Shown here: piece after piece, positions 51,336-64,000 of the stretch
Layout of the letters: each line of letters starts with the position of its first letter
Position numbering within the stretch: position 1 is the first letter of the stretch
Source: an uncultured SAR86 cluster bacterium
GTDB taxonomy: Bacteria > Pseudomonadota > Gammaproteobacteria > Magnimaribacterales > AG-339-G14
Length of the DNA stretch: 64,000 nucleotides
Assembly: GCA_902514645.1 (NCBI GenBank)
Contig: CABXRO010000001.1
Location: 23,301-87,300 of the forward strand
Direction of reading: 5' to 3'
Translations under genes and position numbers: made by a program
The notes under the pieces: generated by a model
Seen by the model: only the letters and a program-made list of their open reading frames with translations
Databases searched by the model: none
Told to the model about the DNA's origin: nothing

Positions 51336-51920
51336 ATGGAAGATTTTGAAAATTCTTTAGAAACAATGCTTGAAAAAGCTTTTTTGACTATTTCTTATGG
51401 TGTAGATGATTCTAAAAGTTATTTTCACACCCCAACTATATGTACTTTTGAAGGGCAAGAAATATCAGCAAGAACTGTTGTGCTTAGAGATTTTAATGAA
51501 CAAGAAAGAGTTTTAAGATTTCATACCGATCAGAGGTCGCCAAAAATTTCTCAAATAAGAGAAAATAATAGTGCTACGGTTCATGCTTATGATCAAGAAG
51601 AAAAAATTCAGATTAGATTAAAAGGAAGTATTGAAATTCATCATCAAGATTCTGTAACTGAAAAGGCATGGGAAAATACCAGAGAGATGTCCAAAGAATG
51701 TTACTCGGTAAAAGACTCTCCCAGTAAAAAGATAGATAATCCGGTTAAATTTGATATTGATAAGAACCAAATTGATAGAGAAATGGGTTATGAAAATTTT
51801 GCAGTTAATCTTTTTACTTTTCAATGCCTAGAAATCTTATATTTAAAAAGATCAGGTCATAGAAGAGCAATCTTCAAATGGAATAACAATGATTTAAAAA
51901 AGAATTGGTTAATACCTTAA
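51336..51920 (+). CDS. Pyridoxamine-5'-phosphate-oxidase-related FMN-binding protein
   Basis: 194 aa. ARTVVLRDF...LRFHTDQRSPKISQI...IRLKG pattern of the PNPOx-like split-barrel family. Confidence 0.6.
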   Translation: MEDFENSLETMLEKAFLTISYGVDDSKSYFHTPTICTFEGQEISARTVVLRDFNEQERVLRFHTDQRSPKISQIRENNSATVHAYDQEEKIQIRLKGSIEIHHQDSVTEKAWENTREMSKECYSVKDSPSKKIDNPVKFDIDKNQIDREMGYENFAVNLFTFQCLEILYLKRSGHRRAIFKWNNNDLKKNWLIP

Positions 51921-52243
51921 TTTACGGTATTGGCCAGAACTAAAATAACACCAGTTACGATCAAAAGGATCCCAACAGAAATAAGTAAAGATGGAAATTC
52001 TTGATATTTTATTGCGCCCAATATTGCTATTAAAATAATCCCTACTCCCGACCAAATTGCATATGCAACTGAAACCGATATATGTTGGAAAGTTAAAGAT
52101 AAAAAATAGAAGCTTGCAGCATAACTAAAGACGACAATAAGGTTTGGTGTCATTTTTGTGAAGCCTTCTGTATCTCTTAAAAAAAGAGTACCAACAACTT
52201 CTAAAACGATTGCTAAAAAGAGAAAGGTATAGGGCAAAACCAT
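51917..52243 (-). CDS. Small multidrug resistance (SMR) family transporter
   Basis: 108 aa, 4 TM, conserved membrane Glu in AIVLEVVGT, and AYAIWSGVG. Confidence 0.85.
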   Translation of the reverse strand: MVLPYTFLFLAIVLEVVGTLFLRDTEGFTKMTPNLIVVFSYAASFYFLSLTFQHISVSVAYAIWSGVGIILIAILGAIKYQEFPSLLISVGILLIVTGVILVLANTVN

Positions 52244-52334
52244 AGTTCTTTTTTTTAATTGTAATCAATAAATTTAGAATATTCATGAAAAGTTAAGCTA
52301 TTTAATTTTTTGTATTTCAAGTTAAAATTAAACT

Positions 52335-53093
52335 ATGAGTAAACATAAAGCTTTAGACATGTTTGGCAAATCTGGAAATCCAACACTGAGTGATGCTACT
52401 TTTGCGGATTTTGAGGATGTAGATCAAAAAACTATGACTTTACAGGGAACTGTAAACAAGGTTGGTATTCTTTTAGCGCTTGTTGTACTAAGTGCTGCGT
52501 ATACTTGGAACGTTTATTTTGTTACTGGCAGTCCTGGGGCGTTAATGCCAATTGGGCTTTTCGGTGGCATGATTTTTGCTCTTATTACCATCTTCAAAAA
52601 GAACTGGGCGATGTACACCGCTCCCATTTATGCCATATTGGAGGGTCTCTTTCTTGGTGGAATTTCTGCTATTTTTGAAAGTCAGTACCCAGGAATTGTG
52701 ATTCAAGCGACCGGATTAACTTTTGGTACTTTGGCTTCCTTACTCATGCTTTATAAAACAGGAGTGATAAAACCTACTGAGAATTTTAGACTTATGGTGG
52801 TATCAGCTACTATGGGGATTGCCTTACTCTATGTAGTTAGCTTCATTATGAGTATGTTTGGTACTGGAATCGGTTTTATTCATGACAACGGTATTTTTGG
52901 TATTGGATTTAGCCTTTTTGTCGTGGGTATTGCAGCTTTGAATTTAGTTTTAGACTTTGATTTTATAGAGGAAGGATCTGAAAAAAATGCCCCAAAATAT
53001 ATGGAGTGGTTCGGTGCCTTTGCCTTAATGGTGACACTGATTTGGCTGTATTTGGAAATGCTTAGGCTGCTTGCAAAGCTAAGAAGCAGATAA
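52335..53093 (+). CDS. Bax-inhibitor-1-like (BaxI_1/YccA-related) membrane protein
   Basis: 252 aa. N-terminal ...SGNPTLS... followed by 7 TM. The family call is from memory. Confidence 0.55.
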   Translation: MSKHKALDMFGKSGNPTLSDATFADFEDVDQKTMTLQGTVNKVGILLALVVLSAAYTWNVYFVTGSPGALMPIGLFGGMIFALITIFKKNWAMYTAPIYAILEGLFLGGISAIFESQYPGIVIQATGLTFGTLASLLMLYKTGVIKPTENFRLMVVSATMGIALLYVVSFIMSMFGTGIGFIHDNGIFGIGFSLFVVGIAALNLVLDFDFIEEGSEKNAPKYMEWFGAFALMVTLIWLYLEMLRLLAKLRSR

Positions 53094-53094
53094 C

Positions 53095-53304
53095 GTGTCT
53101 CTGACAAATATCTTTTTTTTACTCCTTACAATTGTCTCACTTGCGGTATTCTTTTTTTTTGGTCGCTTTAGAGCATCAGAAAAACAATTAAATAGAACCG
53201 ATCGAATTGATTGGTCCAACAGAAGATATGATTTTCTAAAATACTTTTTGCTTATTCTTTTTTTGGCGATAGGTATAGCTTTTTTGATCAGAACTTTCGC
53301 CTAG
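53095..53304 (+). CDS. Small two-TM membrane protein, hypothetical
   Basis: 69 aa. GTG start 1 nt after the preceding stop. No recognisable family. Confidence 0.35.
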   Translation: MSLTNIFFLLLTIVSLAVFFFFGRFRASEKQLNRTDRIDWSNRRYDFLKYFLLILFLAIGIAFLIRTFA

Positions 53305-53314
53305 AATAATTTTA

Positions 53315-54883
53315 ATGATAGATACTGAAATTTTAATTATTGGTGGTGGTGCTGCTGGGTTAACTGCAGCAATTGAACTAAGTCAGAAACACTTGGTATC
53401 TGTAATCTCAAAAGAAACTATTGTTGATAGCTCAACTTGGTATGCACAAGGAGGAATAGCTGCCGTAATGGGAGAGAAAGATACCGTCGAGGAACATATC
53501 GCAGATACCTTGGAAGTTGGAGATGGAATTTGTGATAAGAATGCCGTTACCCACTGTGTAAAAAATAGTAAAGCGGCTATCGATTGGCTTATTGAGATGG
53601 GAGTAAATTTTACAATGACTAAAGGTGGAGAAAAATTGCACCTTACTCAAGAAGGTGGACATTCAAAAAGAAGAGTTGCACATTCTAAAGATACCACCGG
53701 CAAAGAGGTATCAAACTCTTTAATAGCTAGAGCTAGAAAAATAAAAAATATAACAATTTTTGAAAATCATTTAGCGGTTGATTTGATAACAAGCAATCGG
53801 TCATGTTTGGGAGCTTACGTATTCGATAAGAAAAAAGAAGAAGTCATAACATTTAAGTCAAATGCAACAATACTGGCTTCAGGAGGAGCAAGTAAGGTGT
53901 ATTTATATACCAGCAATCCAGATGGAACGAGTGGCGATGGTATGGCACTAGCTTGGCGAGCAGGATGTGAATTATCTAATATGGAATTTAACCAGTTTCA
54001 CCCAACTTGCCTTTATCATCCAGAAGCAAAATCTTTTTTAATTAGTGAAGCTTTGAGAGGTGAAGGAGCTTTTTTACTAAATCATGAAAACGAAAGATTC
54101 ATGAAAAAATATCATAATAAAAATGAGTTAGCTCCAAGAGATGTGGTAGCGAGATCTGTAGATGAAGAAATGAAAAAAACTGGCAAAGACTTTATGTTTC
54201 TAGATATAAGTCATAAACCAAAAAATATGATTTTAAAATCCTTCCCTGCAATTCGTGAAAGATGTTTGAGCTATGGATTTGACATTACTAAAGACAAAAT
54301 ACCTATTGTTCCTGCAGCTCACTATTCATGTGGAGGTGTTAAAACAGGCTTGTCAGGAGAAACAAGTATTAAGCAACTCTATGCTATCGGAGAGACAGCA
54401 TGTACAGGGCTTCACGGCGCTAACAGGATGGCGAGTAATTCTCTTTTGGAATGTATAGTTTTTGCAAAGTCTTCAGCTTTACACATTGAAAAGAACTTCA
54501 ATGTAAATAAAAAAAAGCTCAAGAATTGGGACTCATCTAAAGTCATTAGGTCTGGAGAGAATGTTTTGATCTCTCATAATTGGGACGAAACTCGAAGACT
54601 AATGTGGGACTATGTTGGCGTAGTTAGATCAAACGATCGGCTATCAAAGGCAAAAGAAAAAATTAAAATAATTCAAAATGAAGTGGAGAGTTTTTACAAA
54701 AACTTTGAGTTAACTTCAGATTTTATTGAGTTGAGAAATTTGGTTCTAGTTGCAAGGTTGATTATAGAAAGTGCCATCCTAAGAAAAGAAAGCAGAGGTC
54801 TTCATTACAACATTGATTTCCCTGATAAAATAAAAAAAGGATCTTCTTCAGTAATTTCTAAGAAAAAACTTAGAGTTGCTTAA
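53315..54883 (+). CDS. nadB: L-aspartate oxidase
   Basis: FAD motif ILIIGGGAAGLTAA, WYAQGGIAA, FHPT, YAIGETACTGLHGANRMASNSLLE. Confidence 0.95.
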   Translation: MIDTEILIIGGGAAGLTAAIELSQKHLVSVISKETIVDSSTWYAQGGIAAVMGEKDTVEEHIADTLEVGDGICDKNAVTHCVKNSKAAIDWLIEMGVNFTMTKGGEKLHLTQEGGHSKRRVAHSKDTTGKEVSNSLIARARKIKNITIFENHLAVDLITSNRSCLGAYVFDKKKEEVITFKSNATILASGGASKVYLYTSNPDGTSGDGMALAWRAGCELSNMEFNQFHPTCLYHPEAKSFLISEALRGEGAFLLNHENERFMKKYHNKNELAPRDVVARSVDEEMKKTGKDFMFLDISHKPKNMILKSFPAIRERCLSYGFDITKDKIPIVPAAHYSCGGVKTGLSGETSIKQLYAIGETACTGLHGANRMASNSLLECIVFAKSSALHIEKNFNVNKKKLKNWDSSKVIRSGENVLISHNWDETRRLMWDYVGVVRSNDRLSKAKEKIKIIQNEVESFYKNFELTSDFIELRNLVLVARLIIESAILRKESRGLHYNIDFPDKIKKGSSSVISKKKLRVA

Positions 54884-55268
54884 TCAAATCTCTCATGGAG
54901 AGAACTCCAACAAGTTTTTCCTGATCCATCACTGCAAGATGTCGAATTTGGTTTTCCATCATCAAGTCAAGAGCATCCATTTTGTTACACTGAGGAGTAA
55001 CGCTAATGATATTTTTAGACATTATTTCATTGACCTCATCTTTTAAGGAATCCTTACCTTTGCGAGCGACTAGTTCAATGATGTCTCGCTCAGTAACAAT
55101 GCCTTCAAGATCTTGCGGATCGTTTGAATCTGAGCAATAAACCAGGAGAGCTCCTATTCTATTTTTATCCATTATTTTACAGGCTTTTTCAATAGAGGAA
55201 TTTCTGGCAACTGAAAAAATATCCCAATATCTTTGATTAAGAAGAAGCGATTCTATACTTTCAGGCAT
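54870..55268 (-). CDS. CBS-pair domain protein
   Basis: 132 aa. Two CBS motifs (IGALLVY...GIVTERDI; HLAVMDQEKLVGVLSMRDL). Confidence 0.8.
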   Translation of the reverse strand: MPESIESLLLNQRYWDIFSVARNSSIEKACKIMDKNRIGALLVYCSDSNDPQDLEGIVTERDIIELVARKGKDSLKDEVNEIMSKNIISVTPQCNKMDALDLMMENQIRHLAVMDQEKLVGVLSMRDLIKQL

Positions 55269-55329
55269 TTTGAGAGATGATTTATGAAGTTTTTTGTTTA
55301 TAATACTTCAAAATCTAGGAGATTTAAAA

Positions 55330-55713
55330 ATGATATTTACAAAAGGAATTAGATTATTTTCTTTATTTGCAGTTTTGTTGGGTCTTAGCTCCCTAATTCA
55401 TGCTGATAAAGGCTTTATAACAGTCGATGGAAAAAACATTGAAATGGATGTTGAAAGACAATATCAAGCGCCAGCAAGCTACCCAAGAAAGGCCTTAAGA
55501 CTTGCTAAAGAAGGCTATGTAATTGTTGAATTTGATGTAAGTGCTGACGGAGATGTCATAGATCCGTTTGTTCTGGAAGGCGAGCCCGCCGGACTCTTTG
55601 ATAGAGCTGCTATGAAATCTATTAGAAAATGGATTTACCAACCTCCAATCTATGAGGGTGTTCCAGTTCAAGTTAACGATGTTCAAGTCAAATTAACTTT
55701 TAGAGTTCAATAG
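55330..55713 (+). CDS. Secreted TonB C-terminal-domain-only protein
   Basis: A signal peptide (LFAVLLGLSSLIHA) is followed directly by TonB_C (YPRKALRLAKEGYVIVEFDV...FDRAAMKSIRKWIYQP), paralogous to the C-terminus of TonB at 29032-29775. There is no TM anchor or Pro-rich spacer. ATG at 55330 follows GGAG. Confidence 0.7.
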   Translation: MIFTKGIRLFSLFAVLLGLSSLIHADKGFITVDGKNIEMDVERQYQAPASYPRKALRLAKEGYVIVEFDVSADGDVIDPFVLEGEPAGLFDRAAMKSIRKWIYQPPIYEGVPVQVNDVQVKLTFRVQ

Positions 55714-55735: not shown

Positions 55736-58729
55736 ATGCGTATCAGAACAGTTTTAATTGGGATAGGTCTAGCAGGTAATTTACTGCTAGCCCTCTCTTT
55801 GTTTTTTCTTTTCAACTACAGAGACACTACTCAAAAGAGTTTCGCTAACGAATCTTTAGTATCCACTTATGAAGCTGCATGGTTTCAAACTTTAGAAACC
55901 TCTATTGATGCCATCTCAGCGTGGCTTCCAGTAACTGGAGAAAGAGGAAATTTTTGGGATCCAGAGAATCCAATATATCCAGAAGAAGAGTTATCGTCTC
56001 CAGATCACTCTTTTGCAAATCCTTTAATTCAATTTATTACAGATAAAAACATTGGGGAGGCAGGATATTTACTTGATTTGATGTTTGAATTTGATTTGGA
56101 TGAAGGTAATCTTAGTTTCATCAAAGCCTATTATCCTGATGGGCAAAGATTTTACTGTTCGAGCGCTCTTGATCTCTCAGGAATTGATGCTTGTAATCCT
56201 CAAGCTCAAAATGAATACGATAATAATTTAAGTGAATTTTTGGTTGAAGCCGGTAAAAGGCCTAGGCGTTTTTTACAAAAAATAACTGATTCGACTGGCG
56301 AAAATATTTCAACCTTGAATCAAATGATGGCTTTTCCAGTAAAAGCTTTTAGTAGAAATGCTGAAGCAATCATTGTTATGGGAATTGATGTGAGAAAATC
56401 AATGGAAACTTTTGGGGATGAGTTTGAATTAGTAACGGCTGTACAAACAGAAGAAGGAATTATTTCACTAGGTGATGATTATGCGAGGTATGAGTCAGGC
56501 TTAGAATTAGATGAAACTTCTAATTTTGGAATTACAAATATAAAAGGTCATGTTGATAAAGCTAATCTAAATCTTAAAGAAAATGGAAATAGAACTTCTA
56601 CAAGAGATTCTGATTTAGGATCTCTAATTACATTGTTGCCATTGAGCTCATATCTTTCATCTGATAAGGCACAGCTTTTCATTTTTAGGGATGAAAGTGA
56701 AAGTATTGCTCAAGAAAACGCAATTCTAAATTCAATCTACATAATAATTGTGATTGTTATTTTTCTAGTAATTGCCTTCACCTCTGTAATTCTCGCAAGT
56801 GTATTTGGATCAGTAAATAAAGCTATCGAGGTCTTACAAGCACTCACAAGTGGAGACTTATCGAAAACTATGCCTCAAAGAAGAGGAATCTTAAGATCGG
56901 AAAATGATGAAGTAGGAGAATTAGCTAAAGCCCTTGAAATTTATAGAGGACACCTTAATGAAATGGAAAATATAAGGACAGAACAGGCGCAAAGAAGAAA
57001 AGAAAGAGACACGGCAATTATTGAAAAAATGAGTATCTTAGCTGACGAGCTCGAGGGTGACTCAAGAACTTTGATCTTGAATGACATAAATAGAATGCAA
57101 AATCTTGCACAAGAAAGTTCTCAAGAAAAAGGAGAAGAAGCATCTGTGGAATTGATGACTGTAGCTTTTACCAGAATGGCAGATGAAGTTCAGGTACTAA
57201 TTGATACTCGTACCAAAGAGATGGAAGAATCTAGAGATGAAGCTTTAGAAGCCAACGAACAAAGAAGTAAGTTTTTCGCGAATATGAGTCATGAACTCAG
57301 AACACCACTGAATGCAATATTGGGTTATGGAGAAATGCTCTATGAAGAGTGTGAAGACCTAGGTTATGAAGATTTGATGCCAGACTTAAAAAAAATTACT
57401 ACTTCTGGAACTCATTTATTATCTTTGATAAATAATATTTTAGATCTATCAAAAATAGAATCCGGCAAGATGGAGTTATTTGTTACAAGTTTTGAGATAG
57501 AGAAAGTAGTTGAAACTTTAAGGGACATAAATGCTCCCTTGGCAGCAAAAAATGATAATGGATTTAAGATTAATGTTCAGGAAGCAATAGGATCAATGTC
57601 TCAAGATGAAACTAAGCTAAGGCAGTGTGTGACAAATTTTTTAAGCAATGCGTTTAAATTTACAAACAATGGCCTGGTTACTCTAGATGTATCTTCTTTA
57701 ATTCAAAATGATGTTGAAATGATTGAGTTCAAAGTAACTGATGATGGGGAAGGAATGAGTGAAGAAGGAGTCTCAAAGGTATTTGAAGAGTATGAGCAAG
57801 CAGAGAGGTCAACTTCGGCTACTCATGGAGGAACAGGTTTGGGTCTTCCGATAAGCAAAAGATTTGCTGAATTGATGGGTGGTGGCGTCACTGTTTCAAG
57901 CGAGAAAGGAGTTGGATCTGTTTTTTCTATATACATACCAAGAGTATGTGAGGAATCAGAAGAACTTGAAAATCAAGAAATTAAATCTCTAGAAGGAGAG
58001 AATATTTGTGTCTTAATTGATGATGATATTGCTATGCACGACTTGATTAAGAGAACTGTAAAGAAAGCTGGAATGACTTTAATTGGAGCAACTAATGGCG
58101 AGCAGGGCCTTAGTATGATCAGAGAATCAAATCCAAAACTTATATTGTTGGACGTATTGATGCCAGGAAGAGACGGTTGGTCTATATTAAAAGAATGTAA
58201 ATCTGATGAGTCTATAAAAAATATTCCCGTGATAATGGTCTCCCAAATGTCTCAAGAATCTCTTGCCTTTTCACTTGGTGCAGATGACTATCTTACAAAG
58301 CCGATTGATAGAGATAGGTTCTTAAAAGTGGTTACAGACTTATTAGGCGATTCTTCAAATAATAAAATTTTAATTGTAGATGATGATTCAAATACCCGTG
58401 ATATTTTAGGAAGAGCCCTAAAAGACGTAGGATACGAGCCATATCTGGCAAAAGATGGTAAAGAAGGCTTGGATAAACTAGATAAAAATCCTGCCCTAAT
58501 TGTTCTAGATTTAGAAATGCCAAGAATGGATGGTTTTGAATTCTTAGAAAATTTTGTAGATATGGATTTTGAAGAAAAACCAAACATTCTTGTTTACTCG
58601 GGAAAAGATTTGTCGGAGGTTCAGGAAGAACTTTTAAGAAAAAATGTGGCAGGTTTAGTAAAAAAAGATGAAGTATCTATTAATCAATTACCAGCAATGG
58701 TTACAAAATTATTAGGAAGTAAAAACTAA
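55736..58729 (+). CDS. Hybrid sensor histidine kinase with a large periplasmic domain, HAMP, HisKA, HATPase_c and two receiver domains
   Basis: TM at aa 5-26 and 333-356. H-box MSHELRTPLNAILGY (His519, nt 57290-57292). N-box NFLSNAFKFT, G-boxes DDGEGM / GGTGLGL. REC Asp806 (LILLDVLMP) and Asp925 (LIVLDLEMP). Confidence 0.92.
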   Translation: MRIRTVLIGIGLAGNLLLALSLFFLFNYRDTTQKSFANESLVSTYEAAWFQTLETSIDAISAWLPVTGERGNFWDPENPIYPEEELSSPDHSFANPLIQFITDKNIGEAGYLLDLMFEFDLDEGNLSFIKAYYPDGQRFYCSSALDLSGIDACNPQAQNEYDNNLSEFLVEAGKRPRRFLQKITDSTGENISTLNQMMAFPVKAFSRNAEAIIVMGIDVRKSMETFGDEFELVTAVQTEEGIISLGDDYARYESGLELDETSNFGITNIKGHVDKANLNLKENGNRTSTRDSDLGSLITLLPLSSYLSSDKAQLFIFRDESESIAQENAILNSIYIIIVIVIFLVIAFTSVILASVFGSVNKAIEVLQALTSGDLSKTMPQRRGILRSENDEVGELAKALEIYRGHLNEMENIRTEQAQRRKERDTAIIEKMSILADELEGDSRTLILNDINRMQNLAQESSQEKGEEASVELMTVAFTRMADEVQVLIDTRTKEMEESRDEALEANEQRSKFFANMSHELRTPLNAILGYGEMLYEECEDLGYEDLMPDLKKITTSGTHLLSLINNILDLSKIESGKMELFVTSFEIEKVVETLRDINAPLAAKNDNGFKINVQEAIGSMSQDETKLRQCVTNFLSNAFKFTNNGLVTLDVSSLIQNDVEMIEFKVTDDGEGMSEEGVSKVFEEYEQAERSTSATHGGTGLGLPISKRFAELMGGGVTVSSEKGVGSVFSIYIPRVCEESEELENQEIKSLEGENICVLIDDDIAMHDLIKRTVKKAGMTLIGATNGEQGLSMIRESNPKLILLDVLMPGRDGWSILKECKSDESIKNIPVIMVSQMSQESLAFSLGADDYLTKPIDRDRFLKVVTDLLGDSSNNKILIVDDDSNTRDILGRALKDVGYEPYLAKDGKEGLDKLDKNPALIVLDLEMPRMDGFEFLENFVDMDFEEKPNILVYSGKDLSEVQEELLRKNVAGLVKKDEVSINQLPAMVTKLLGSKN

Positions 58730-59091
58730 GTTCCTAAATTCGATTCAATTTTTTCTAAAAGCCTTTTGAAATCAACCGGCTTTGTATCAAAATCATCAGC
58801 TCCACATTCCAAAGCCTTTTGACGGTCATGTTCCATAGCATGTGCTGTAAGAGCAATTATTGGAATGCTTGAAATTTCTGGATCGGCCTTTGCTTGGGTG
58901 GTTGCTTCCCATCCATCTAAAACAGGCAATCCCATATCCATTAAAACCAAATCAGGATTTTCAGATTTCATTTTTTCTAACCCTTCTTGTCCATCAAAAG
59001 CAAAAATGACCTCAAACTCCCTTCTAGTCAAACGTCTGCCTAACATATCGCGGTTCATTTCATTGTCTTCTATATACAGAATCTTTTTCAT
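58726..59091 (-). CDS. Single-domain response regulator (CheY-like)
   Basis: 121 aa. ILYIEDNEMN, DLVLMDMGLPVLDG, ALTAHA, KP. AAGGAG Shine-Dalgarno upstream. Confidence 0.9.
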   Translation of the reverse strand: MKKILYIEDNEMNRDMLGRRLTRREFEVIFAFDGQEGLEKMKSENPDLVLMDMGLPVLDGWEATTQAKADPEISSIPIIALTAHAMEHDRQKALECGADDFDTKPVDFKRLLEKIESNLGT

Positions 59092-59102
59092 AACTTTCTC
59101 CT

Positions 59103-60557
59103 TCAGTTATAGATAAACTTATTTCTTCCCCCTTCTTTAGCTTTATAGAGTCTTTCATCAGCAAGGTTTACAAGTTCTTCTTGATCCTTAACTTCTGATG
59201 AGTTAATTACTCCACCACTTATAGTAATATTTATTTTAGTATCTTGAAAGGGAATAGAAAGATCTATTACTGCTTGTCTGATTTTTTCACAATAATCTTG
59301 AAGATCTAAATCATCTTTGTTCTCAATCACGGCTATAAACTCTTCTCCGCCAACCCTGCCTATTACATTATTACCGCAAGCATCTCTAAGACTATGTGCA
59401 ACTGCTTTCAAAACTTCGTCTCCTCCAGGATGCCCGTAGGTATCGTTTATAGACTTGAAGAAATCAATATCCATTGATAGTAATGCAAATTCGTATGAAT
59501 TTTTTTGATTCAACTTATCAAAACAATCCTCAATCTTATCGAAAACAACCTGTCTGTTGAAAATACCAGTCAGAGGACAAGTTGTTGCCTTTAAATTTAA
59601 TTCTTTTAAAAGCTCTTGTTCTCTAGCTCTGAAATATTTTGCCTCTAAACTTGCTATGGACTTAGCCATTAAGATTGTCCCATTTAATGGTTTAGGCAGA
59701 TAATCGGATGCTCCTAGTTTTATGCACTTTGCTGTGCTGTCAACATCATTAAAAGCTGAAACCATTATGATTGGAAGTTCGTCTCTCTCGTGATTATTTC
59801 TGAATCGTTTTAAAAGTTCTAAGCCATTGATATCTGGCAACATGACATCAAGCAGTATTAAATCTGGAGTTTTAGCATCAACCTCTTTTATAGCAGTTGT
59901 TCCATCAAAGGCTACTCTGCAAGAAAGACCGTTTTGAGAAAGTCTTCTTTCTAAAACTTCACAGTTTGTCTTATTATCATCCACAATTAAAACGTCTGAT
60001 CCTTTGAGATGATCATCGATATCAAGACTATAATCAATGTCACCCAAAGATCGAAAAAGTGATTCTGCATTTTGGATTTGGCCTTGCTCTGAATCTTCTG
60101 CAGCGCTTTCATTTAAATCGCCCTTAATAAAATCAACGAATCTCTCTATGGCCGTTTCGGTTTCCCTTGATAGAGATAAAATTGTGTTTAAATCTTTTAT
60201 GCATTCTTCAGAAAGATCTTTTTCAAAGTCTTCTATGAGAATTTCGCTATATCCAATAATCGCATTTAAAGGAGTTCTTAAATTATGTCTAAGTTCTGAA
60301 TATTCTTGATTCGTTTTAGTTTTTTTATCTGTAGCGGTATTTTCTTTGAATGCATCTTCATATTGACTTAGAAGCTTATCTTCCGCTTCCTTAATTTGGT
60401 TTATTTCAGAGTTAATGTCTAAATTATTTTCTGCTGCAAATTGCTCAACTAAATCTATATATTGCTCAATTGCTTCAGCTGGAGCTGAAAACTCTTGTTT
60501 AATTTGAGCAAGTAATATTTTTTCTGCGCCTTTTGAAGGTTTTTCTTGTAACCCCAT
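59103..60557 (-). CDS. Response-regulator diguanylate cyclase with N-terminal tandem DHp (HisKA-like) units and no ATPase domain
   Basis: 484 aa from the Met at 60557 (TAATG overlap with the EAL gene). Degenerate H-box IKQEFSAPAEAIEQY, intact H-box LRHNLRTPLNAIIGY (His91), REC (Asp237) and GGDEF domain with GGEEF. Confidence 0.88.
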   Translation of the reverse strand: MGLQEKPSKGAEKILLAQIKQEFSAPAEAIEQYIDLVEQFAAENNLDINSEINQIKEAEDKLLSQYEDAFKENTATDKKTKTNQEYSELRHNLRTPLNAIIGYSEILIEDFEKDLSEECIKDLNTILSLSRETETAIERFVDFIKGDLNESAAEDSEQGQIQNAESLFRSLGDIDYSLDIDDHLKGSDVLIVDDNKTNCEVLERRLSQNGLSCRVAFDGTTAIKEVDAKTPDLILLDVMLPDINGLELLKRFRNNHERDELPIIMVSAFNDVDSTAKCIKLGASDYLPKPLNGTILMAKSIASLEAKYFRAREQELLKELNLKATTCPLTGIFNRQVVFDKIEDCFDKLNQKNSYEFALLSMDIDFFKSINDTYGHPGGDEVLKAVAHSLRDACGNNVIGRVGGEEFIAVIENKDDLDLQDYCEKIRQAVIDLSIPFQDTKINITISGGVINSSEVKDQEELVNLADERLYKAKEGGRNKFIYN

Positions 60558-61645
60558 TAAAATTCCTCCTTGAACTCTTTTAAAAACTGAGGACGATGAT
60601 GAAAATATCCTTGACCACTCTGACATCCTAGCTTTTGGAAGGTCTCTTGTTGTTCTTTGGTTTCTATTCCCTCTGCCAACATTCCCAGATCCATGTTTTT
60701 GCAAATTGTTACTACAAACCTTACTAGCTCCTGAGTATCCTCTTCAGAAACAGTTCTCGAAAAATCTTTATCAAGTTTTACCAAGGTTATAGGCAAATCC
60801 CTCAAATAACTTAACGAAGAATAGCCAGCTCCAAAATCATCAAGTGCAAGGGGTATGCCATGCTCCTTCAAATTTTCAAAATATTTTGCTGCCCTTTCTC
60901 TATCTTCCAATTCAGCTGTTTCTGTTATTTCCAAACCAAGGTCGCCGGGATTTAAGTTATTTTCTTTCACAAAATCCAGAATGATTTTACAAAAATTGTC
61001 CTGCATTGCTGTATGAGCAGAAACATTTAGATATACGGTAAAGTCTAAATTCTTTTCTTTTTTGAAAACAAAAATTTCTTTTAGCTTTTGCATCGATGCC
61101 AAGACTACTAAAGAGAAGAGACTCTCGCCTTCAACAAGCGGTATTAATAAATTATTTGGAATAATATTTCCTTCTTCGTCCCTAAGCCTCAAAAGAGCTT
61201 CAACACTAACAAGTTCTCCTGTTCTTAAGTCATATTGCTTTTGATAAGCCATATCTATTCGATCATTCTCTAAACAAGCAATAGAATTCTTTAAAGCATC
61301 TAAAGCAGCTTCAGATTGAGCTAAGACTTCAACTAAAAAAAATGTCCTTTTTTTGTCTAATGGAATCTCATGGATTCTCGATCGTAGAAAAAATCTTATC
61401 TTTCTCAAAGAAAGCTCTAAATCAGATTGAAAAGAGGATCCAATTGCTTCGATCTTTTTTGAAGAGCCGCTAGATACAATAGGTGCGATATTTATATCTT
61501 TTATTGAAGGTGTATCGAAAACATATTGGGCGGACTGATTCATCCATTCTACTCCATCTTCTTTGCAGAAAATTAGATATGGACTTGGGTGATGTTGTAA
61601 AGATTTAATTAAATATTTGGCTTGTTGATCCTTAATTATTGTCAT
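60557..61645 (-). CDS. EAL-domain c-di-GMP phosphodiesterase with an uncharacterised (PAS-like?) N-terminal domain
   Basis: The catalytic set is all present: EALLRL, N in YLNVS, EITE, DDFGAGYSS, KLDK, EGIE, QGYF. Confidence 0.87.
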   Translation of the reverse strand: MTIIKDQQAKYLIKSLQHHPSPYLIFCKEDGVEWMNQSAQYVFDTPSIKDINIAPIVSSGSSKKIEAIGSSFQSDLELSLRKIRFFLRSRIHEIPLDKKRTFFLVEVLAQSEAALDALKNSIACLENDRIDMAYQKQYDLRTGELVSVEALLRLRDEEGNIIPNNLLIPLVEGESLFSLVVLASMQKLKEIFVFKKEKNLDFTVYLNVSAHTAMQDNFCKIILDFVKENNLNPGDLGLEITETAELEDRERAAKYFENLKEHGIPLALDDFGAGYSSLSYLRDLPITLVKLDKDFSRTVSEEDTQELVRFVVTICKNMDLGMLAEGIETKEQQETFQKLGCQSGQGYFHHRPQFLKEFKEEF

Positions 61646-62099
61646 CTTCTATTAACTCCTCTACTACATCAACAAAACTATCGTTGAAAGTTGTTTTCAT
61701 AAAAGACCAAAGCTTTAAATGATACTCAGACCTAAATAAAGTTTTGAAAGACCTTTTATAGTTTTCCCACTCCCCCTTATCAATCATGCCTATAGTGTAT
61801 TGATAATGCTGATTTTCTCTAGATCTCAGCATGATACTAAAATAGGACATATATTTTGCATCTTCTTCAGGTGATAATTCTTCATTGTTTCTGAGTTTTA
61901 ATTTTATTTTTACCATACTTTTTTTCATACCCTCTAAAGCAATTTCTTGATGGCTATCTGCAACGTTTTGCCTCGCATTTGCTCTCGCAACTCTATTTTG
62001 TTCTCTCATTTCTTGAATTAAATAGTAAATTGAAGCTATACCACCAATAGCGGCAAGCCCTCCCAAAATGCTGCTTAGGTATTCTAGTAAAAATCCCAT
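61632..62099 (-). CDS. Hypothetical single-TM protein (first gene of the c-di-GMP operon)
   Basis: 155 aa. N-terminal TM (ILGGLAAIGGIASIYYLI) followed by a charged helical domain. Overlaps the EAL gene start by 14 nt. Confidence 0.5.
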   Translation of the reverse strand: MGFLLEYLSSILGGLAAIGGIASIYYLIQEMREQNRVARANARQNVADSHQEIALEGMKKSMVKIKLKLRNNEELSPEEDAKYMSYFSIMLRSRENQHYQYTIGMIDKGEWENYKRSFKTLFRSEYHLKLWSFMKTTFNDSFVDVVEELIEDDNN

Positions 62100-62154: not shown

Positions 62155-62700
62155 TTACAATTTAATATCAAATGTAGGAACATCATCGAAGCTCAAACCG
62201 TTTTTATCTTTTTCAGATATAAGGATTGGTTCAAAAGGCAATTCAATATTTATTTTTTTGTCGTTGTACTTTAATGTGAATTCATCTTTAGGATTCCAAA
62301 AATCTGAGACTTTATAAAAGACTTTTGTGTCGTCCTGCAGCGCAAGAAACCCGTGAGCAAAACCTTCTGGGATAAAGATTTGCTTATTATTTTTACTAGA
62401 AATTTCAAAAGTACACCAATCTCCAAAGGTTTTAGAGGATTTTCTCAAATCGACAACAATATCAAGTATTTCTCCTGATAGAACACTTACTAATTTTGCT
62501 TGAGGAAATTCATATTGAAAATGTAACCCCCTAAAAACCCCTTTTTTAGAAATACTAAAATTATCTTGAACAAAAGTAATATTATTTTTCAGCGAATAAT
62601 TAAAATGTTTTGAATTAAAGCTTTCCATAAAACTTCCTCTATCATCCTGAAATTCTTTCTGAGTAATTTCGACAATCCCTTCTAAGACTTCTCTTTTCAT
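62155..62700 (-). CDS. rfbC: dTDP-4-dehydrorhamnose 3,5-epimerase
   Basis: DDRGSF, RGLHFQ, QAKLVSV, GFAHGF motifs of RmlC. Confidence 0.93.
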   Translation of the reverse strand: MKREVLEGIVEITQKEFQDDRGSFMESFNSKHFNYSLKNNITFVQDNFSISKKGVFRGLHFQYEFPQAKLVSVLSGEILDIVVDLRKSSKTFGDWCTFEISSKNNKQIFIPEGFAHGFLALQDDTKVFYKVSDFWNPKDEFTLKYNDKKINIELPFEPILISEKDKNGLSFDDVPTFDIKL

Positions 62701-63569
62701 TTCGAACTTATTACCTTTATCAAATAATTACCATAGGAACTCGATGAAACATTAATAATTTCTTTCACTTGTTTTCTTGAAATCCACTTATTTCTAAAAG
62801 CAATCTCTTCCAAACATGCTATTTTATTTTTTTGTTTAGCCTGACTCTTGGATACAAAGTTTGAAGCTTTTAATAAACTATCAAAAGTACCGCAATCAAG
62901 CCAAACTGATTCTTTTCTAAGTTCGCTTACTCTTAATTTTCCGGCTTTTAAGTAAATCTCATTAAGATCTGAAATCTCAAGTTCACCTCTTTTGGAAGGA
63001 GATAGTTTTTTTGCTTTTTTGCTTACATCTTTTGGAAAAAAATATAGGCCCGTAATCGCCCTATTTGTCTTTGGCTTTTTAGGTTTTTCAATAATTTTAA
63101 AAGGCTTGTTGTTTTTCTTTTCAAGTACACCAAATCTTTCAGGATCTTTTACAGGGTAAGTTAAAACTGATGCGTTAGAGATATCTTCATCAGCTTTTTT
63201 GAGAGCTCTTATTAAATCCTTACCATGGAATAAATTGTCTCCCAAAATTAGACAACAGGGATCTGATTTAAGAAATTTTTCACCTAATAACAAAGCTTGT
63301 GCTATCCCATTAGGCTTATTTTGGATTTTATATGAAAAATTTATTCCCCATTTTTTTCCACTTTGAAGTAATGATTTATATCTTGGCATATCTTCAGGTG
63401 AAGAGATAATTAAAATTTCTTTTATCCCAACCATCATTAAAATTGATAAAGGATAGTAGATCATTGGTTTGTCATAGATAGGAAGAAGCTGCTTAGAAGA
63501 AACGTCAGTTAAAGGATGTAGTCTTGATCCTGATCCGCCAGCTAAGATAATTCCTTTTCTTTTTGACAT
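62697..63569 (-). CDS. rfbA: Glucose-1-phosphate thymidylyltransferase
   Basis: KGIILAGGSGSRLHPLT, IYDKPMIYYPLS, LGDN, EKPKKPKTN, WLDCGT. Confidence 0.95.
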   Translation of the reverse strand: MSKRKGIILAGGSGSRLHPLTDVSSKQLLPIYDKPMIYYPLSILMMVGIKEILIISSPEDMPRYKSLLQSGKKWGINFSYKIQNKPNGIAQALLLGEKFLKSDPCCLILGDNLFHGKDLIRALKKADEDISNASVLTYPVKDPERFGVLEKKNNKPFKIIEKPKKPKTNRAITGLYFFPKDVSKKAKKLSPSKRGELEISDLNEIYLKAGKLRVSELRKESVWLDCGTFDSLLKASNFVSKSQAKQKNKIACLEEIAFRNKWISRKQVKEIINVSSSSYGNYLIKVISSK

Positions 63570-63574
63570 TTTTT

Positions 63575-64000
63575 TTACTTAAATATTTCTAAAATACTTT
63601 TTTCCCAGCTAGGTATTGAGAGAGAAAATTCTTTTTTAATTTTATCAGACGATAGATGAGAATATTTTGGCCTATTTGCCTTAAAATTCATTTCTTCAGA
63701 AGAAACAGGAGTGAGACTTATATCTGCAAACTTAGATTTTTTCTTGCGATTTTTACAAATCCTTTGAGCGAATTTACTGAATTCAAACCAAGTACCCGAA
63801 GAAGGTCCAACTAAATTATATATTTCACCTAGTGAGTTTACTTTCTCTATTTTAAGAGAAGAAAGAATTTTATTTATTGCTTCTGCTAAAAAATCAGAAT
63901 GATTGAGAGAAGTAATTTGGTCATCAACTATTTTGAGTTCTTTTTGTGTTTCTGCTGCCAACATAATTTTATTGATAAAGTTATTTGTGTTATTTGAAAT
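63575..64000 (-). CDS. rfbD: dTDP-4-dehydrorhamnose reductase, C-terminal part (gene continues beyond the window edge)
   Basis: The reading frame stays open through 64000 (..ISNNTNNFINKIMLAAETQKELKIVDDQITS..), matching the RmlD block NNF..TML.LA.....L.V..DQ. The Met at 63964 is internal. Confidence 0.85.
   Translation of the reverse strand: MSNNTNNFINKIMLAAETQKELKIVDDQITSLNHSDFLAEAINKILSSLKIEKVNSLGEIYNLVGPSSGTWFEFSKFAQRICKNRKKKSKFADISLTPVSSEEMNFKANRPKYSHLSSDKIKKEFSLSIPSWEKSILEIFK

What the first reader, a model, noticed from the sequence alone, without database searches (positions are those of the whole stretch)
59103..60557. Diguanylate cyclase with two tandem DHp-like units (Gln then His) and no ATPase domain: a possible single-chain Hpt-like relay
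Read from the Met at 60557, the product is 484 aa.
- Residues 84-110 carry an intact histidine-kinase H-box, SELRHNLRTPLNAIIGYSEIL (His91 = nt 60285-60287). It is almost the same as the H-box of the neighbouring hybrid kinase (MSHELRTPLNAILGYGEML).
- Residues 14-40 carry a second, degenerate copy, IKQEFSAPAEAIEQYIDLV, with Gln at the phosphoacceptor position. A similarly patterned following helix (EQF..ENNLD..EINQI versus EDFEKDL..ECIKDL) suggests an internal duplication.
- Only about 75 residues separate the H-box from the receiver domain (Asp237 in LILLDVMLP). I see no N/G1/F/G2 ATP-binding boxes.
- The C-terminus is a GGDEF domain with GGEEF (nt 59337-59351) and no RxxD I-site.

Inference: two DHp hairpins in one chain could fold into an intramolecular four-helix bundle with a single His. 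That would mimic an Hpt domain, receive phosphate from the REC domains of the adjacent hybrid kinase, and pass it to its own REC to switch the cyclase. I do not recognise this as a characterised architecture.
Basis: partly seen in the sequence, partly recalled or inferred. Interest (0 to 1): 0.65.

Follow-up and report, generated by a model that had tools for sequence, protein, structure and literature searches.

The report
Single-chain DHp relay module on cyclase
A marine SAR86 bacterium has a c-di-GMP-making response regulator whose front end is a duplicated histidine-kinase helix pair with no ATPase. It probably folds alone into a four-helix bundle with one phosphorylatable histidine, and it belongs to a widespread, apparently unstudied gene cassette that may explain how some hybrid kinases lacking an HPt domain pass on their signal.

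Summary
The 484-aa product of 59103-60557 (-) is DHp unit 1 (Gln21), DHp unit 2 (His91, intact H-box), a roughly 40-aa linker, REC (Asp237) and GGDEF (GGEEF, no I-site). It has no HATPase_c.

- **Duplication:** profile-profile comparison puts Gln21 on His91 (95% probability, E 4e-8).
- **Fold:** two independent AlphaFold2 models show four long helices, and their closest PDB shapes are single-chain four-helix bundles.
- **Distribution:** the module is common. Among the 150 best cluster representatives, 65 are Gln-His tandems and about 35 are His-His. Most carry REC plus a class III cyclase; SAR86 has GGDEF instead.
- **Cassette:** 40 of 46 loci from at least seven phyla also encode a hybrid kinase and a roughly 120-aa single REC. 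The hybrid kinase is HisKA-HATPase-REC-REC, with no Hpt in 11 of 11 tested.

The best reading is a DHp-derived, Spo0B/ChpT-like phosphotransfer site fused to its response regulator. Phosphotransfer itself is inferred, not shown. I found no description in six searches of open-access papers and preprints. I rate it a new variant of a known kind.

The parts
59103..60557 (-). Whole gene: tandem DHp (Gln/His)-REC-GGDEF response regulator, 484 aa
   Evidence: ORF and translation. Pfam finds HisKA, Response_reg and GGDEF but no HATPase_c. SD sequence and TAATG coupling support the start at 60557.
60336..60533 (-). DHp-like unit 1 (aa 9-74): helical hairpin with Gln21 (nt 60495-60497) at the phospho-acceptor position
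   Evidence: AlphaFold2 helices 9-43 and 49-74, pLDDT mostly >90. hhalign aligns Gln21 on His91. The Gln is invariant in 35 diverse relatives. The residue at +4 is Ala rather than Thr.
60123..60311 (-). DHp unit 2 (aa 83-145): intact H-box, with His91 (nt 60285-60287) and Thr95
   Evidence: Pfam HisKA 32.2 bits against GA 26.9. It matches the HK853, DivL and EnvZ DHp domains in the PDB. The LRHxLRxPxNxIxGYxE motif is invariant. AlphaFold2 helices 83-110 and 117-145.
60000..60122 (-). Low-confidence linker (aa 146-186) where a kinase would carry its ATPase domain
   Evidence: pLDDT is below 50 over 151-162 and 171-185. No HATPase_c hit at E<=1.
59658..59999 (-). Receiver domain (aa 187-300): Asp193/Asp194, Asp237 (nt 59847-59849), Ser267, Lys289
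   Evidence: Pfam Response_reg 98 bits. All catalytic positions are conserved in 47 of 47 family receivers.
59118..59576 (-). GGDEF diguanylate cyclase domain (aa 328-480): GGEEF at nt 59337-59351, no RxxD I-site
   Evidence: Pfam GGDEF 121 bits. Motif positions checked.
58726..59091 (-). Single-domain receiver (121 aa, Asp52), 11 nt downstream in the same operon; a conserved cassette member
   Evidence: Pfam Response_reg 91 bits. A single REC lies nearby in 43 of 46 loci. The phospho-acceptor Asp is present in 74 of 75.
55736..58729 (+). Convergent hybrid histidine kinase (997 aa): TM, roughly 300-aa sensor of unknown type, TM, HAMP, HisKA (His519), HATPase_c, REC1 (Asp806), REC2 (Asp925); no HPt
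   Evidence: Pfam. Coordinates. A HisKA-HATPase-REC-REC kinase lies next to the module in 42 of 46 loci. None of 10 further examples has Hpt.
60557..61645 (-). EAL phosphodiesterase gene (362 aa), translationally coupled upstream; SAR86-specific addition to the cassette
   Evidence: Pfam EAL 173 bits. The EAL gene is present upstream in every SAR86-type locus whose upstream flank was recovered, and absent from the cyclase-type cassettes.

Best explanation
The N-terminal 150 residues are a tandem duplication of a HisKA-type DHp helical hairpin that has lost the ATPase domain.

**Proposed fold.** The two hairpins pack against each other within one chain. This gives an up-down-up-down four-helix bundle, a single-chain pseudo-dimer of the normally homodimeric DHp. 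Only one catalytic face remains (His91/Thr95). The other face is disabled but conserved (Gln21, Ala at +4).

**Proposed function.** The bundle acts as a DHp-derived histidine phosphotransfer site built into the response regulator.
1. The hybrid kinase autophosphorylates on His519.
2. It passes the phosphoryl group to one of its own receivers (Asp806 or Asp925), and/or to the free 121-aa receiver (Asp52).
3. That receiver donates the phosphoryl group to His91.
4. His91 hands it in cis, across the flexible 40-residue linker, to Asp237.
5. The phosphorylated receiver drives dimerisation of the GGDEF domain and c-di-GMP synthesis, with no I-site feedback.
6. The co-transcribed EAL enzyme opposes this.

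A monomeric bundle keeps cyclase dimerisation under receiver control. The free receiver is either the shuttle (Spo0F-like) or a phosphate sink.

**Shown:** the domain anatomy, the duplication, the predicted fold and the conserved cassette.
**Inferred:** every phosphotransfer step, and the cis direction.
For: **Anatomy and duplication**
- Pfam finds HisKA, REC and GGDEF and no ATPase.
- hhalign of unit 1 against unit 2 gives 94.9% probability, E 4e-8, with Gln on His.

**Fold**
- AlphaFold2 of aa 1-185 gives four helices (9-43, 49-74, 83-110, 117-145). pLDDT is mostly above 90 and pTM is 0.70.
- An independent model of a distant relative (P0257, 23% identical to the SAR86 members in alignment A3) gives the same four helices with pTM 0.75.
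- The closest PDB geometries are single-chain four-helix bundles. An example is single-chain ROP 1yo7_A, with TM 0.75 and rmsd 4.0 Å.
- Only 8 residues link helix 2 to helix 3.

**Conservation**
- The H-box and His are invariant, and so is the Gln of unit 1, across 35 diverse members.
- Thr at H+4 is kept in the His unit (100 of 109). It is replaced by Ala in the Gln unit (28 of 42).

**Genomic context**
- Of 46 loci with a CA-less DHp-REC-cyclase gene, 42 have an adjacent hybrid kinase with two receivers, 43 have a single REC, and 40 have both.
- The loci come from Alpha- and Gammaproteobacteria, Acidobacteriota, Chloroflexota, Planctomycetota, delta-proteobacterial MAGs and an Opitutaceae MAG.
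- The kinases carry different sensor domains, and none of the 11 tested has Hpt PF01627. They therefore need an external His relay point.
- All four receiver classes keep the phospho-acceptor Asp.
- Unit 2 and the partner kinase share the same DHp helix-1 sequence (HxLRTPLNAIxGYSE). This is expected if both dock the same receiver(s).
Against: - No biochemical data exist for any member.
- AlphaFold2 was run on a single chain. It cannot exclude a domain-swapped dimer. I could not inspect coordinates or predicted errors.
- The Foldseek E-values are not significant (>0.04), as is usual for plain helical bundles.
- The H+1 residue is acidic in most family members (D/E in 91 of 109). This test therefore does not separate a pure phosphotransfer site from a site phosphorylated by an ATPase domain in trans.
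- The conserved Thr95 fits a phosphatase role as well as a phosphotransfer role.
- I could not check whether SAR86 genomes carry a separate HPt gene elsewhere. Nothing two-component-related lies in the other 55 kb of the window.
- The loci were found with peptide patterns shared by the kinase and the regulator. Only the best 80 of at least 556 hits were examined.
Confidence: 0.55

Rival explanations
1. The bundle is a built-in phosphatase or reset module. The hybrid kinase phosphorylates Asp237 directly. The ATPase-less DHp, through His91/Thr95, then dephosphorylates its own receiver or the free receiver, as bifunctional HisKA kinases do. This sets the signal lifetime.
For: - The HisKA phosphatase residue Thr at H+4 is kept in 100 of 109 His units.
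- Galperin et al. raise the same possibility for HisKA proteins without an ATPase (PMC5847659).
- The similarity between unit 2 and the kinase DHp means the kinase DHp could also dock the regulator's receiver.
Against: - It does not explain why the partner kinases always carry two phosphorylatable receivers and never an HPt.
- It does not explain why His itself is invariant, since His is generally regarded as less critical than the H+4 residue for HisKA phosphatase activity (my recollection of the EnvZ/NarX mutant literature, not checked here).
- HisKA phosphatase activity is reported to be helped by the nucleotide-bound ATPase domain, which is absent here (same caveat).
- This rival is not exclusive of the main explanation. 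PhyT is described as a bifunctional phosphotransferase in the title of PMC5898713 (listed; I did not read the paper).
Confidence: 0.18
2. The bundle is a non-catalytic scaffold. It either forces or gates dimerisation of the cyclase domains, as the degenerate HisKA of Dictyostelium ACR does. Alternatively it docks onto the partner kinase's DHp (RetS-GacS style), or binds the phosphorylated free receiver (DivL-DivK style). No phosphate passes through His91.
For: - In ACR, a HisKA domain lacking the His is essential for cyclase activity as a dimeriser (PMC3009899).
- Both GGDEF and class III cyclases need dimers.
- The profile matches the DivL DHp (4q20, E 1.6e-5).
- The invariant Gln face suggests a conserved binding surface that needs no phosphorylation.
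Against: - Scaffolds lose their catalytic motifs: ACR lost the His, and DivL has Tyr. Here the complete H-box is invariant in unit 2 across phyla.
- The tandem arrangement, the short 8-residue connector and the AlphaFold2 models point to a self-contained monomeric bundle, not an intermolecular dimeriser.
Confidence: 0.12
3. This is a split kinase. The ATPase domain of the neighbouring hybrid kinase, or of another kinase, phosphorylates His91 in trans with ATP, as CheA P4 phosphorylates P1. His91 then transfers to Asp237.
For: - Most family members keep an acidic residue at H+1. This residue is regarded as the catalytic base for ATP-dependent autophosphorylation in HisKA kinases (my recollection, not checked here).
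- Unit 2 is almost identical to the kinase's own H-box.
Against: - In the SAR86 lineage H+1 is Asn. From my recollection of HisKA mutant work, not checked here, loss of the acidic residue impairs autokinase chemistry.
- The idea leaves the kinase's two conserved receivers and the free receiver without a role.
- I know of no precedent for a HisKA ATPase domain acting on a separate monomeric bundle.
Confidence: 0.07

Closest known systems
Spo0B (Bacillus), ChpT (Caulobacter) and PhyT (Sphingomonas): DHp-type histidine phosphotransferases
   Same: They are DHp-derived four-helix bundles that carry a phosphorylatable His, lack autokinase activity and shuttle phosphate between receiver domains. The gene order single REC, then DHp-type His, then REC-output mirrors Spo0F to Spo0B to Spo0A. 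This comparison rests on my knowledge of these systems. PhyT appeared only as a search hit (PMC5898713), which I did not read.
   Different: Those proteins are free-standing homodimers with two His sites and a degenerate ATPase-like domain. Here the bundle is predicted to form within one chain from a tandem repeat, with one His and one Gln and no ATPase remnant. It is fused to the terminal response regulator. The NCBIfam ChpT models do not match the window protein. They match a Ruegeria relative only at 15 bits against a cut-off of 225.
HPt domains (PF01627; ArcB-C, LuxU, YPD1)
   Same: Both are monomeric four-helix bundles with a single His that relays phosphate from a hybrid kinase's receiver to a terminal receiver.
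   Different: The sequence family is unrelated: there is no Pfam Hpt hit at E<=1. The His sits in a HisKA H-box (H-x-L-R-T-P), not in the HPt motif. No HPt structure appeared among the top 50 Foldseek matches.
CyaC of Spirulina/Anabaena (kinase-REC-class III cyclase)
   Same: A DHp and a receiver sit directly upstream of a nucleotide cyclase, and receiver phosphorylation activates the cyclase (as summarised in PMC3009899).
   Different: CyaC has a working ATPase domain and autophosphorylates. The present family has none and depends on a separate hybrid kinase.
PleD, WspR and DgcR (REC-GGDEF response regulators)
   Same: The C-terminal two thirds (REC-GGDEF with GGEEF) is this well-known kind of phosphorylation-activated diguanylate cyclase.
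   Different: The NCBIfam PleD model scores 208 bits against a cut-off of 474, and DgcR scores 173 against 500. There is no second adaptor receiver and no I-site. The extra N-terminal DHp bundle is absent from those proteins.
Dictyostelium adenylate cyclase R; DivL
   Same: Both are HisKA-derived helices reused next to receivers or cyclases without kinase activity (PMC3009899; DivL PDB 4q20).
   Different: Both have lost the phospho-acceptor His. Here one unit keeps the full H-box.

Membership tests
HisKA / DHp domain (PF00512) | Profile score above Pfam's gathering cut-off | tested here: met
   Unit 2 (aa 87-145) scores 32.2 bits against 26.9. Pfam does not detect unit 1 in this protein. Unit 1 aligns to unit 2 by hhalign, and in relatives it is detected as a second HisKA.
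HisKA / DHp domain (PF00512) | Conserved phospho-acceptor His in the H-box, with Thr/Asn at H+4 | tested here: met
   His91 and Thr95 are present in unit 2. Unit 1 has Gln21 and Ala at +4, so it is not met there.
Sensor histidine kinase | HATPase_c catalytic domain (N, G1, F, G2 boxes) after the DHp | tested here: not met
   No HATPase_c family appears at E<=1. Only about 40 poorly structured residues lie between the DHp and REC.
HPt domain (PF01627) | Match to the Hpt profile | tested here: not met
   No hit at E<=1.
HPt domain (PF01627) | Monomeric four-helix bundle with one exposed His | tested here: inconclusive
   Two AlphaFold2 models are compatible with this. The oligomeric state cannot be established with these tools.
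Spo0B/ChpT-type phosphotransferase | Match to family models and presence of a degenerate ATPase-like domain | tested here: not met
   NCBIfam ChpT gives no hit for the window protein. A Ruegeria relative scores 15.4 bits against a cut-off of 225. There is no ATPase-like remnant.
Spo0B/ChpT-type phosphotransferase | Reversible phosphotransfer between two receiver domains through the His | not testable with these tools
   This needs a phosphotransfer assay. The context is compatible.
Receiver domain (PF00072) | Profile match plus the acidic pair, phospho-acceptor Asp, Ser/Thr and Lys | tested here: met
   Scores 98 bits. Asp193/194, Asp237, Ser267 and Lys289 are present, and these positions are conserved in 47 of 47 family members.
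GGDEF diguanylate cyclase (PF00990) | Profile match and an intact GG(D/E)EF active-site motif | tested here: met
   Scores 121 bits. GGEEF is at 403-407. Enzymatic activity was not tested.
GGDEF diguanylate cyclase (PF00990) | RxxD inhibitory site five residues upstream of GGDEF (optional feature) | tested here: not met
   Positions 394-397 read CGNN.
PleD family / DgcR (NCBIfam equivalogs) | Score above the curated equivalog cut-off | tested here: not met
   PleD scores 208 against 474, and DgcR scores 173 against 500.

The most novel reading that the evidence does not exclude
The tandem Gln/His DHp bundle defines a widespread, unrecognised class of single-chain, deliberately asymmetric histidine phosphotransfer modules. 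It replaces HPt in a conserved six-site relay: His in the kinase, three Asp across the kinase's two receivers and the free receiver, His in the regulator, and Asp in the regulator. This relay controls cAMP/cGMP or c-di-GMP synthesis, or in some relatives a second kinase, in many bacterial phyla. The invariant Gln face would serve as a non-transferring docking site for a second receiver. The module would then integrate two receivers at once.
Probability: 0.4. Interest if true: 0.75.

Novelty: new variant of a known kind. Interest (0 to 1): 0.62.

Why it matters
- **HPt-less hybrid kinases.** Many hybrid histidine kinases have no HPt domain and no obvious HPt partner, so how they reach their targets is often unknown. 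This cassette offers a concrete, testable answer for one large group: the relay histidine sits on the response regulator, in a DHp that has been duplicated into a self-sufficient bundle.
- **A natural single-chain DHp.** The module has one live and one dead active site. That makes it a useful system for separating the two halves of a DHp dimer.
- **Annotation.** These proteins are currently labelled 'histidine kinase', 'adenylate cyclase' or 'response regulator'. That labelling hides the architecture.
- **SAR86 biology.** SAR86 is an abundant, uncultured, genome-streamlined marine group. This operon is the only two-component system in the 64-kb window, and it points to regulated c-di-GMP signalling in that group.

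Tried and rejected
**Structure libraries**
- Foldseek against the PDB gave only non-significant generic four-helix bundles.
- Sequence and profile searches of the PDB found matches for unit 2 only. No solved structure covers both units.

**Annotation and literature**
- NCBIfam has no model specific to the module.
- Six literature searches found no description of a tandem DHp or of HisKA-REC-cyclase regulators.
- The Anabaena CdgK/CdgS paper, which looked promising, describes an ordinary HPt relay.

**Tests that did not discriminate or did not hold**
- I asked whether the residue after the His (H+1) is non-acidic in ATPase-less members, as might be expected for a pure transfer site. It is Asn in SAR86 but Asp/Glu in most others, so the test does not discriminate.
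- An apparent fusion of the free receiver to the module in locus L019 would have been Rosetta-stone evidence. It turned out to be a frameshift in a MAG assembly.
- The count of 3790 representatives at E<=1e-10 cannot be used as the family size. Ordinary kinases match unit 2.
Full report
**1. Observation**

The ORF on the minus strand from 60557 to 59103 encodes 484 residues. Three observations support the ATG at 60557 as the start.
- It overlaps the stop codon of the upstream EAL gene (TAATG).
- An AAGGAGG lies 7 nt upstream.
- Homologues begin at the same point.

- His91 is nt 60285-60287, and Gln21 is nt 60495-60497.
- Asp237 lies in LILLDVMLP.
- GGEEF is nt 59337-59351.
- The I-site position reads CGNN.

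Pfam finds three domains and no HATPase_c family, even at E<=1.
- HisKA at 87-145, 32.2 bits against a cut-off of 26.9.
- Response_reg at 189-297.
- GGDEF at 328-480.

The H-box is close to that of the convergent hybrid kinase.

**2. The duplication is real**

I cut 70-residue segments around the Gln-box and the H-box from 53 sequences (the window protein plus homologues). Profile-profile alignment gave 94.9% probability and E 4.2e-8, with Gln exactly on His.

The Gln-box lies 69-73 residues before the H-box in 80 of the 110 homologues. These include distant high-GC relatives only about 25% identical. The one exception, P0076, has an internal deletion.

In an alignment of 35 diverse members, these positions are invariant.
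- The Gln of unit 1.
- L-R-H-x-L-R-x-P-x-N-x-I-x-G-Y-x-E of unit 2.

The Thr at H+4 is kept in the His unit (100 of 109). It is usually Ala in the Gln unit (28 of 42). One face is therefore catalytically intact, and the other is disabled but conserved.

**3. Fold**

AlphaFold2 on residues 1-185 predicts four long helices: 9-43, 49-74, 83-110 and 117-145. Block-mean pLDDT is about 85-98 within the helices, lower at their ends. pTM is 0.70, and a disordered stretch leads to REC.

A second, independent model used a distant relative (P0257, 23% identical to the SAR86 members in alignment A3) and a different 35-sequence alignment. It gives the same four helices with pTM 0.75.

The best geometric matches in the PDB are single-chain four-helix bundles.
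- Single-chain ROP 1yo7_A (TM 0.75, rmsd 4.0 Å).
- Pectin methylesterase and invertase inhibitors.
- Designed maquettes.
- Ferritin-like proteins.

The E-values are not significant, which is usual for plain bundles. I could not inspect coordinates.

The 8-residue connector between helix 2 and helix 3 fits the topology of a DHp dimer. There, the C-terminus of helix 2 and the N-terminus of the partner's helix 1 lie at the same end. That last point is inference from known DHp structures such as HK853, which matched.

**4. The family and its cassette**

An exhaustive profile search returned many relatives. Among the best 150 cluster representatives:
- 65 are Gln-His tandems.
- About 35 are His-His tandems.
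- A few have a degenerate second unit (Tyr, Ala).

Where the C-terminus is present, the usual architecture is REC plus a class III adenylate/guanylate cyclase. Some relatives carry two or three HisKA units. In others the module precedes REC and a complete kinase. GGDEF occurs only in the SAR86 lineage.

In species-representative genomes, the window matches SAR86 single-cell genomes at about 90% identity. Of 46 loci with an ATPase-less DHp-REC-cyclase gene:
- 42 have an adjacent hybrid kinase with two receivers.
- 43 have a single REC of about 120 aa.
- 40 have both.

The loci come from these groups:
- Alphaproteobacteria (Rhizobium, Sinorhizobium, Ruegeria, Tropicimonas, Inquilinus, Amaricoccus).
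- Gammaproteobacteria.
- Acidobacteriota.
- Chloroflexota.
- Planctomycetota.
- Delta-proteobacterial MAGs.
- An Opitutaceae MAG.

Ten such kinases from different phyla carry different sensors: PAS_7, GAF, 4HB_MCP, HAMP, dCache and CHASE8. All share the core HisKA-HATPase_c-REC-REC, and none has Hpt. The window's kinase also lacks Hpt.

All four receiver classes keep the phospho-acceptor Asp and almost all of the other catalytic residues. The Lys column of the kinase's second receiver was only partly alignable, and its Ser/Thr position is Tyr in 9 of 60.

SAR86 adds a translationally coupled EAL gene.

**5. Mechanism**

A hybrid kinase whose phosphate ends on an Asp needs a His to pass it to another receiver. 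The cassette contains exactly one other conserved His-bearing element, the ATPase-less DHp bundle on the regulator.

The gene set is kinase, single REC, DHp-type His, REC-output. It parallels KinA, Spo0F, Spo0B, Spo0A, with the last two fused. This parallel is from established knowledge of the Bacillus phosphorelay.

The near-identity of helix 1 in unit 2 and in the partner kinase is what one expects if one receiver must dock on both.

A monomeric bundle also makes sense for cyclases. They are active only as dimers, and a constitutive DHp dimer would remove receiver control. This point is inference.

I therefore favour an internal phosphotransfer site: kinase His519, to a kinase receiver and/or the free receiver, to His91, to Asp237, to GGDEF activation. 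My confidence is about 0.55.

The rivals are these.
- A built-in phosphatase. Thr95 is conserved, and Galperin et al. raise the same idea for HisKA proteins without an ATPase (PMC5847659).
- A non-catalytic scaffold or dimeriser, as in Dictyostelium ACR (PMC3009899), or a DivL-like receiver-binding surface.
- Trans-phosphorylation by the kinase's ATPase domain.

The invariant complete H-box argues against a pure scaffold. The conserved dual receivers and missing HPt argue against direct kinase-to-Asp237 transfer. None of the rivals is excluded without biochemistry.

**6. Comparison with known systems**

The module works like Spo0B, ChpT, PhyT and HPt, but it is a member of none of those families.
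- Hpt profile: no match.
- ChpT models: no meaningful match.
- ATPase-like remnant: none.

It is a HisKA-family DHp by profile and motif. It is not a histidine kinase.

The REC-GGDEF part is ordinary, but it scores below the PleD and DgcR equivalog cut-offs.

Source annotations are generic: 'response regulator', 'histidine kinase dimerization/phospho-acceptor domain-containing protein', 'adenylate cyclase'.

Six full-text searches found no description of a tandem or single-chain DHp, or of this cassette. The library covers only open-access papers and preprints, so a description elsewhere cannot be ruled out.

**7. Verdict**

The finding extends from one odd protein to a widespread conserved cassette.

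Novelty: a new variant of a known kind, namely a DHp-derived phosphotransfer protein.

Interest is moderate to high for two-component signalling, because it gives a directly testable route for a class of HPt-less hybrid kinases and a natural asymmetric single-chain DHp.

Noticed in passing
window 60557-61645 (-): The EAL phosphodiesterase gene is translationally coupled to the cyclase gene (TAATG overlap). Its first 120 residues have no Pfam match and only a faint PhoR-like (PAS-like?) similarity at E 0.018. The EAL, DDFG and EGIE motifs look intact by eye. A synthase and a hydrolase of c-di-GMP therefore share one operon.
   Followed up: partly
window 61632-62099 (-): A 155-aa ORF overlaps the start of the EAL gene by 14 nt. 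It has a hydrophobic N-terminus and no Pfam family at E<=1. It may be a further, uncharacterised member of the operon.
   Followed up: no
window 55294-55713 (+) and 55736-56800 (+): A small TonB_C-domain protein (139 aa) ends 23 nt before the hybrid kinase gene. The kinase's roughly 300-residue region between its two hydrophobic segments (about aa 28-330) matches no Pfam sensor domain, so the input signal is unknown.
   Followed up: no
window 58726-58729: The hybrid kinase gene (+) and the single-receiver gene (-) converge, and their 3' ends overlap by 4 nt. The same tail-to-tail arrangement recurs in all the SAR86 loci (L003-L014).
   Followed up: partly
P0123, P0111, P0115 (representatives); loci L079, L081, L070, L056: The module has variants. 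In P0123 the Gln-His tandem plus REC precedes three GAF domains and a complete kinase. P0111 has three His-bearing units. L079 and L081 are His-His tandems. L070 and L056 have an intact first unit and a degenerate second unit (Tyr or Ala). The dead unit can be either one, which suggests repeated loss of one site from a His-His ancestor.
   Followed up: partly
L019 7512-9605: An apparent fusion of the free receiver to the N-terminus of the module is a frameshift artefact of the MAG assembly. The receiver continues in another frame and stops at 7926.
   Followed up: yes
L036, L043, L054 (Cellvibrionales/Pseudomonadales MAGs); L037, L046, L069, L073 (Caulobacterales): Related cassettes exist in which my profile did not detect the tandem module. 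In L036, L043 and L054 the regulator is REC-cyclase of about 500-570 aa. In L037, L046, L069 and L073 it is REC-GGDEF-EAL. I do not know whether the former hide a diverged module in their roughly 190 N-terminal residues.
   Followed up: no
window 51917-55268 and 62155-63964: The flanking genes are ordinary. On one side are an SMR efflux protein, a Bax-inhibitor-like protein, an L-aspartate-oxidase-like flavoprotein and a CBS-pair protein. On the other side are rmlC, rmlA and a partial rmlD (dTDP-rhamnose synthesis). No other two-component gene lies in the 64-kb window.
   Followed up: yes
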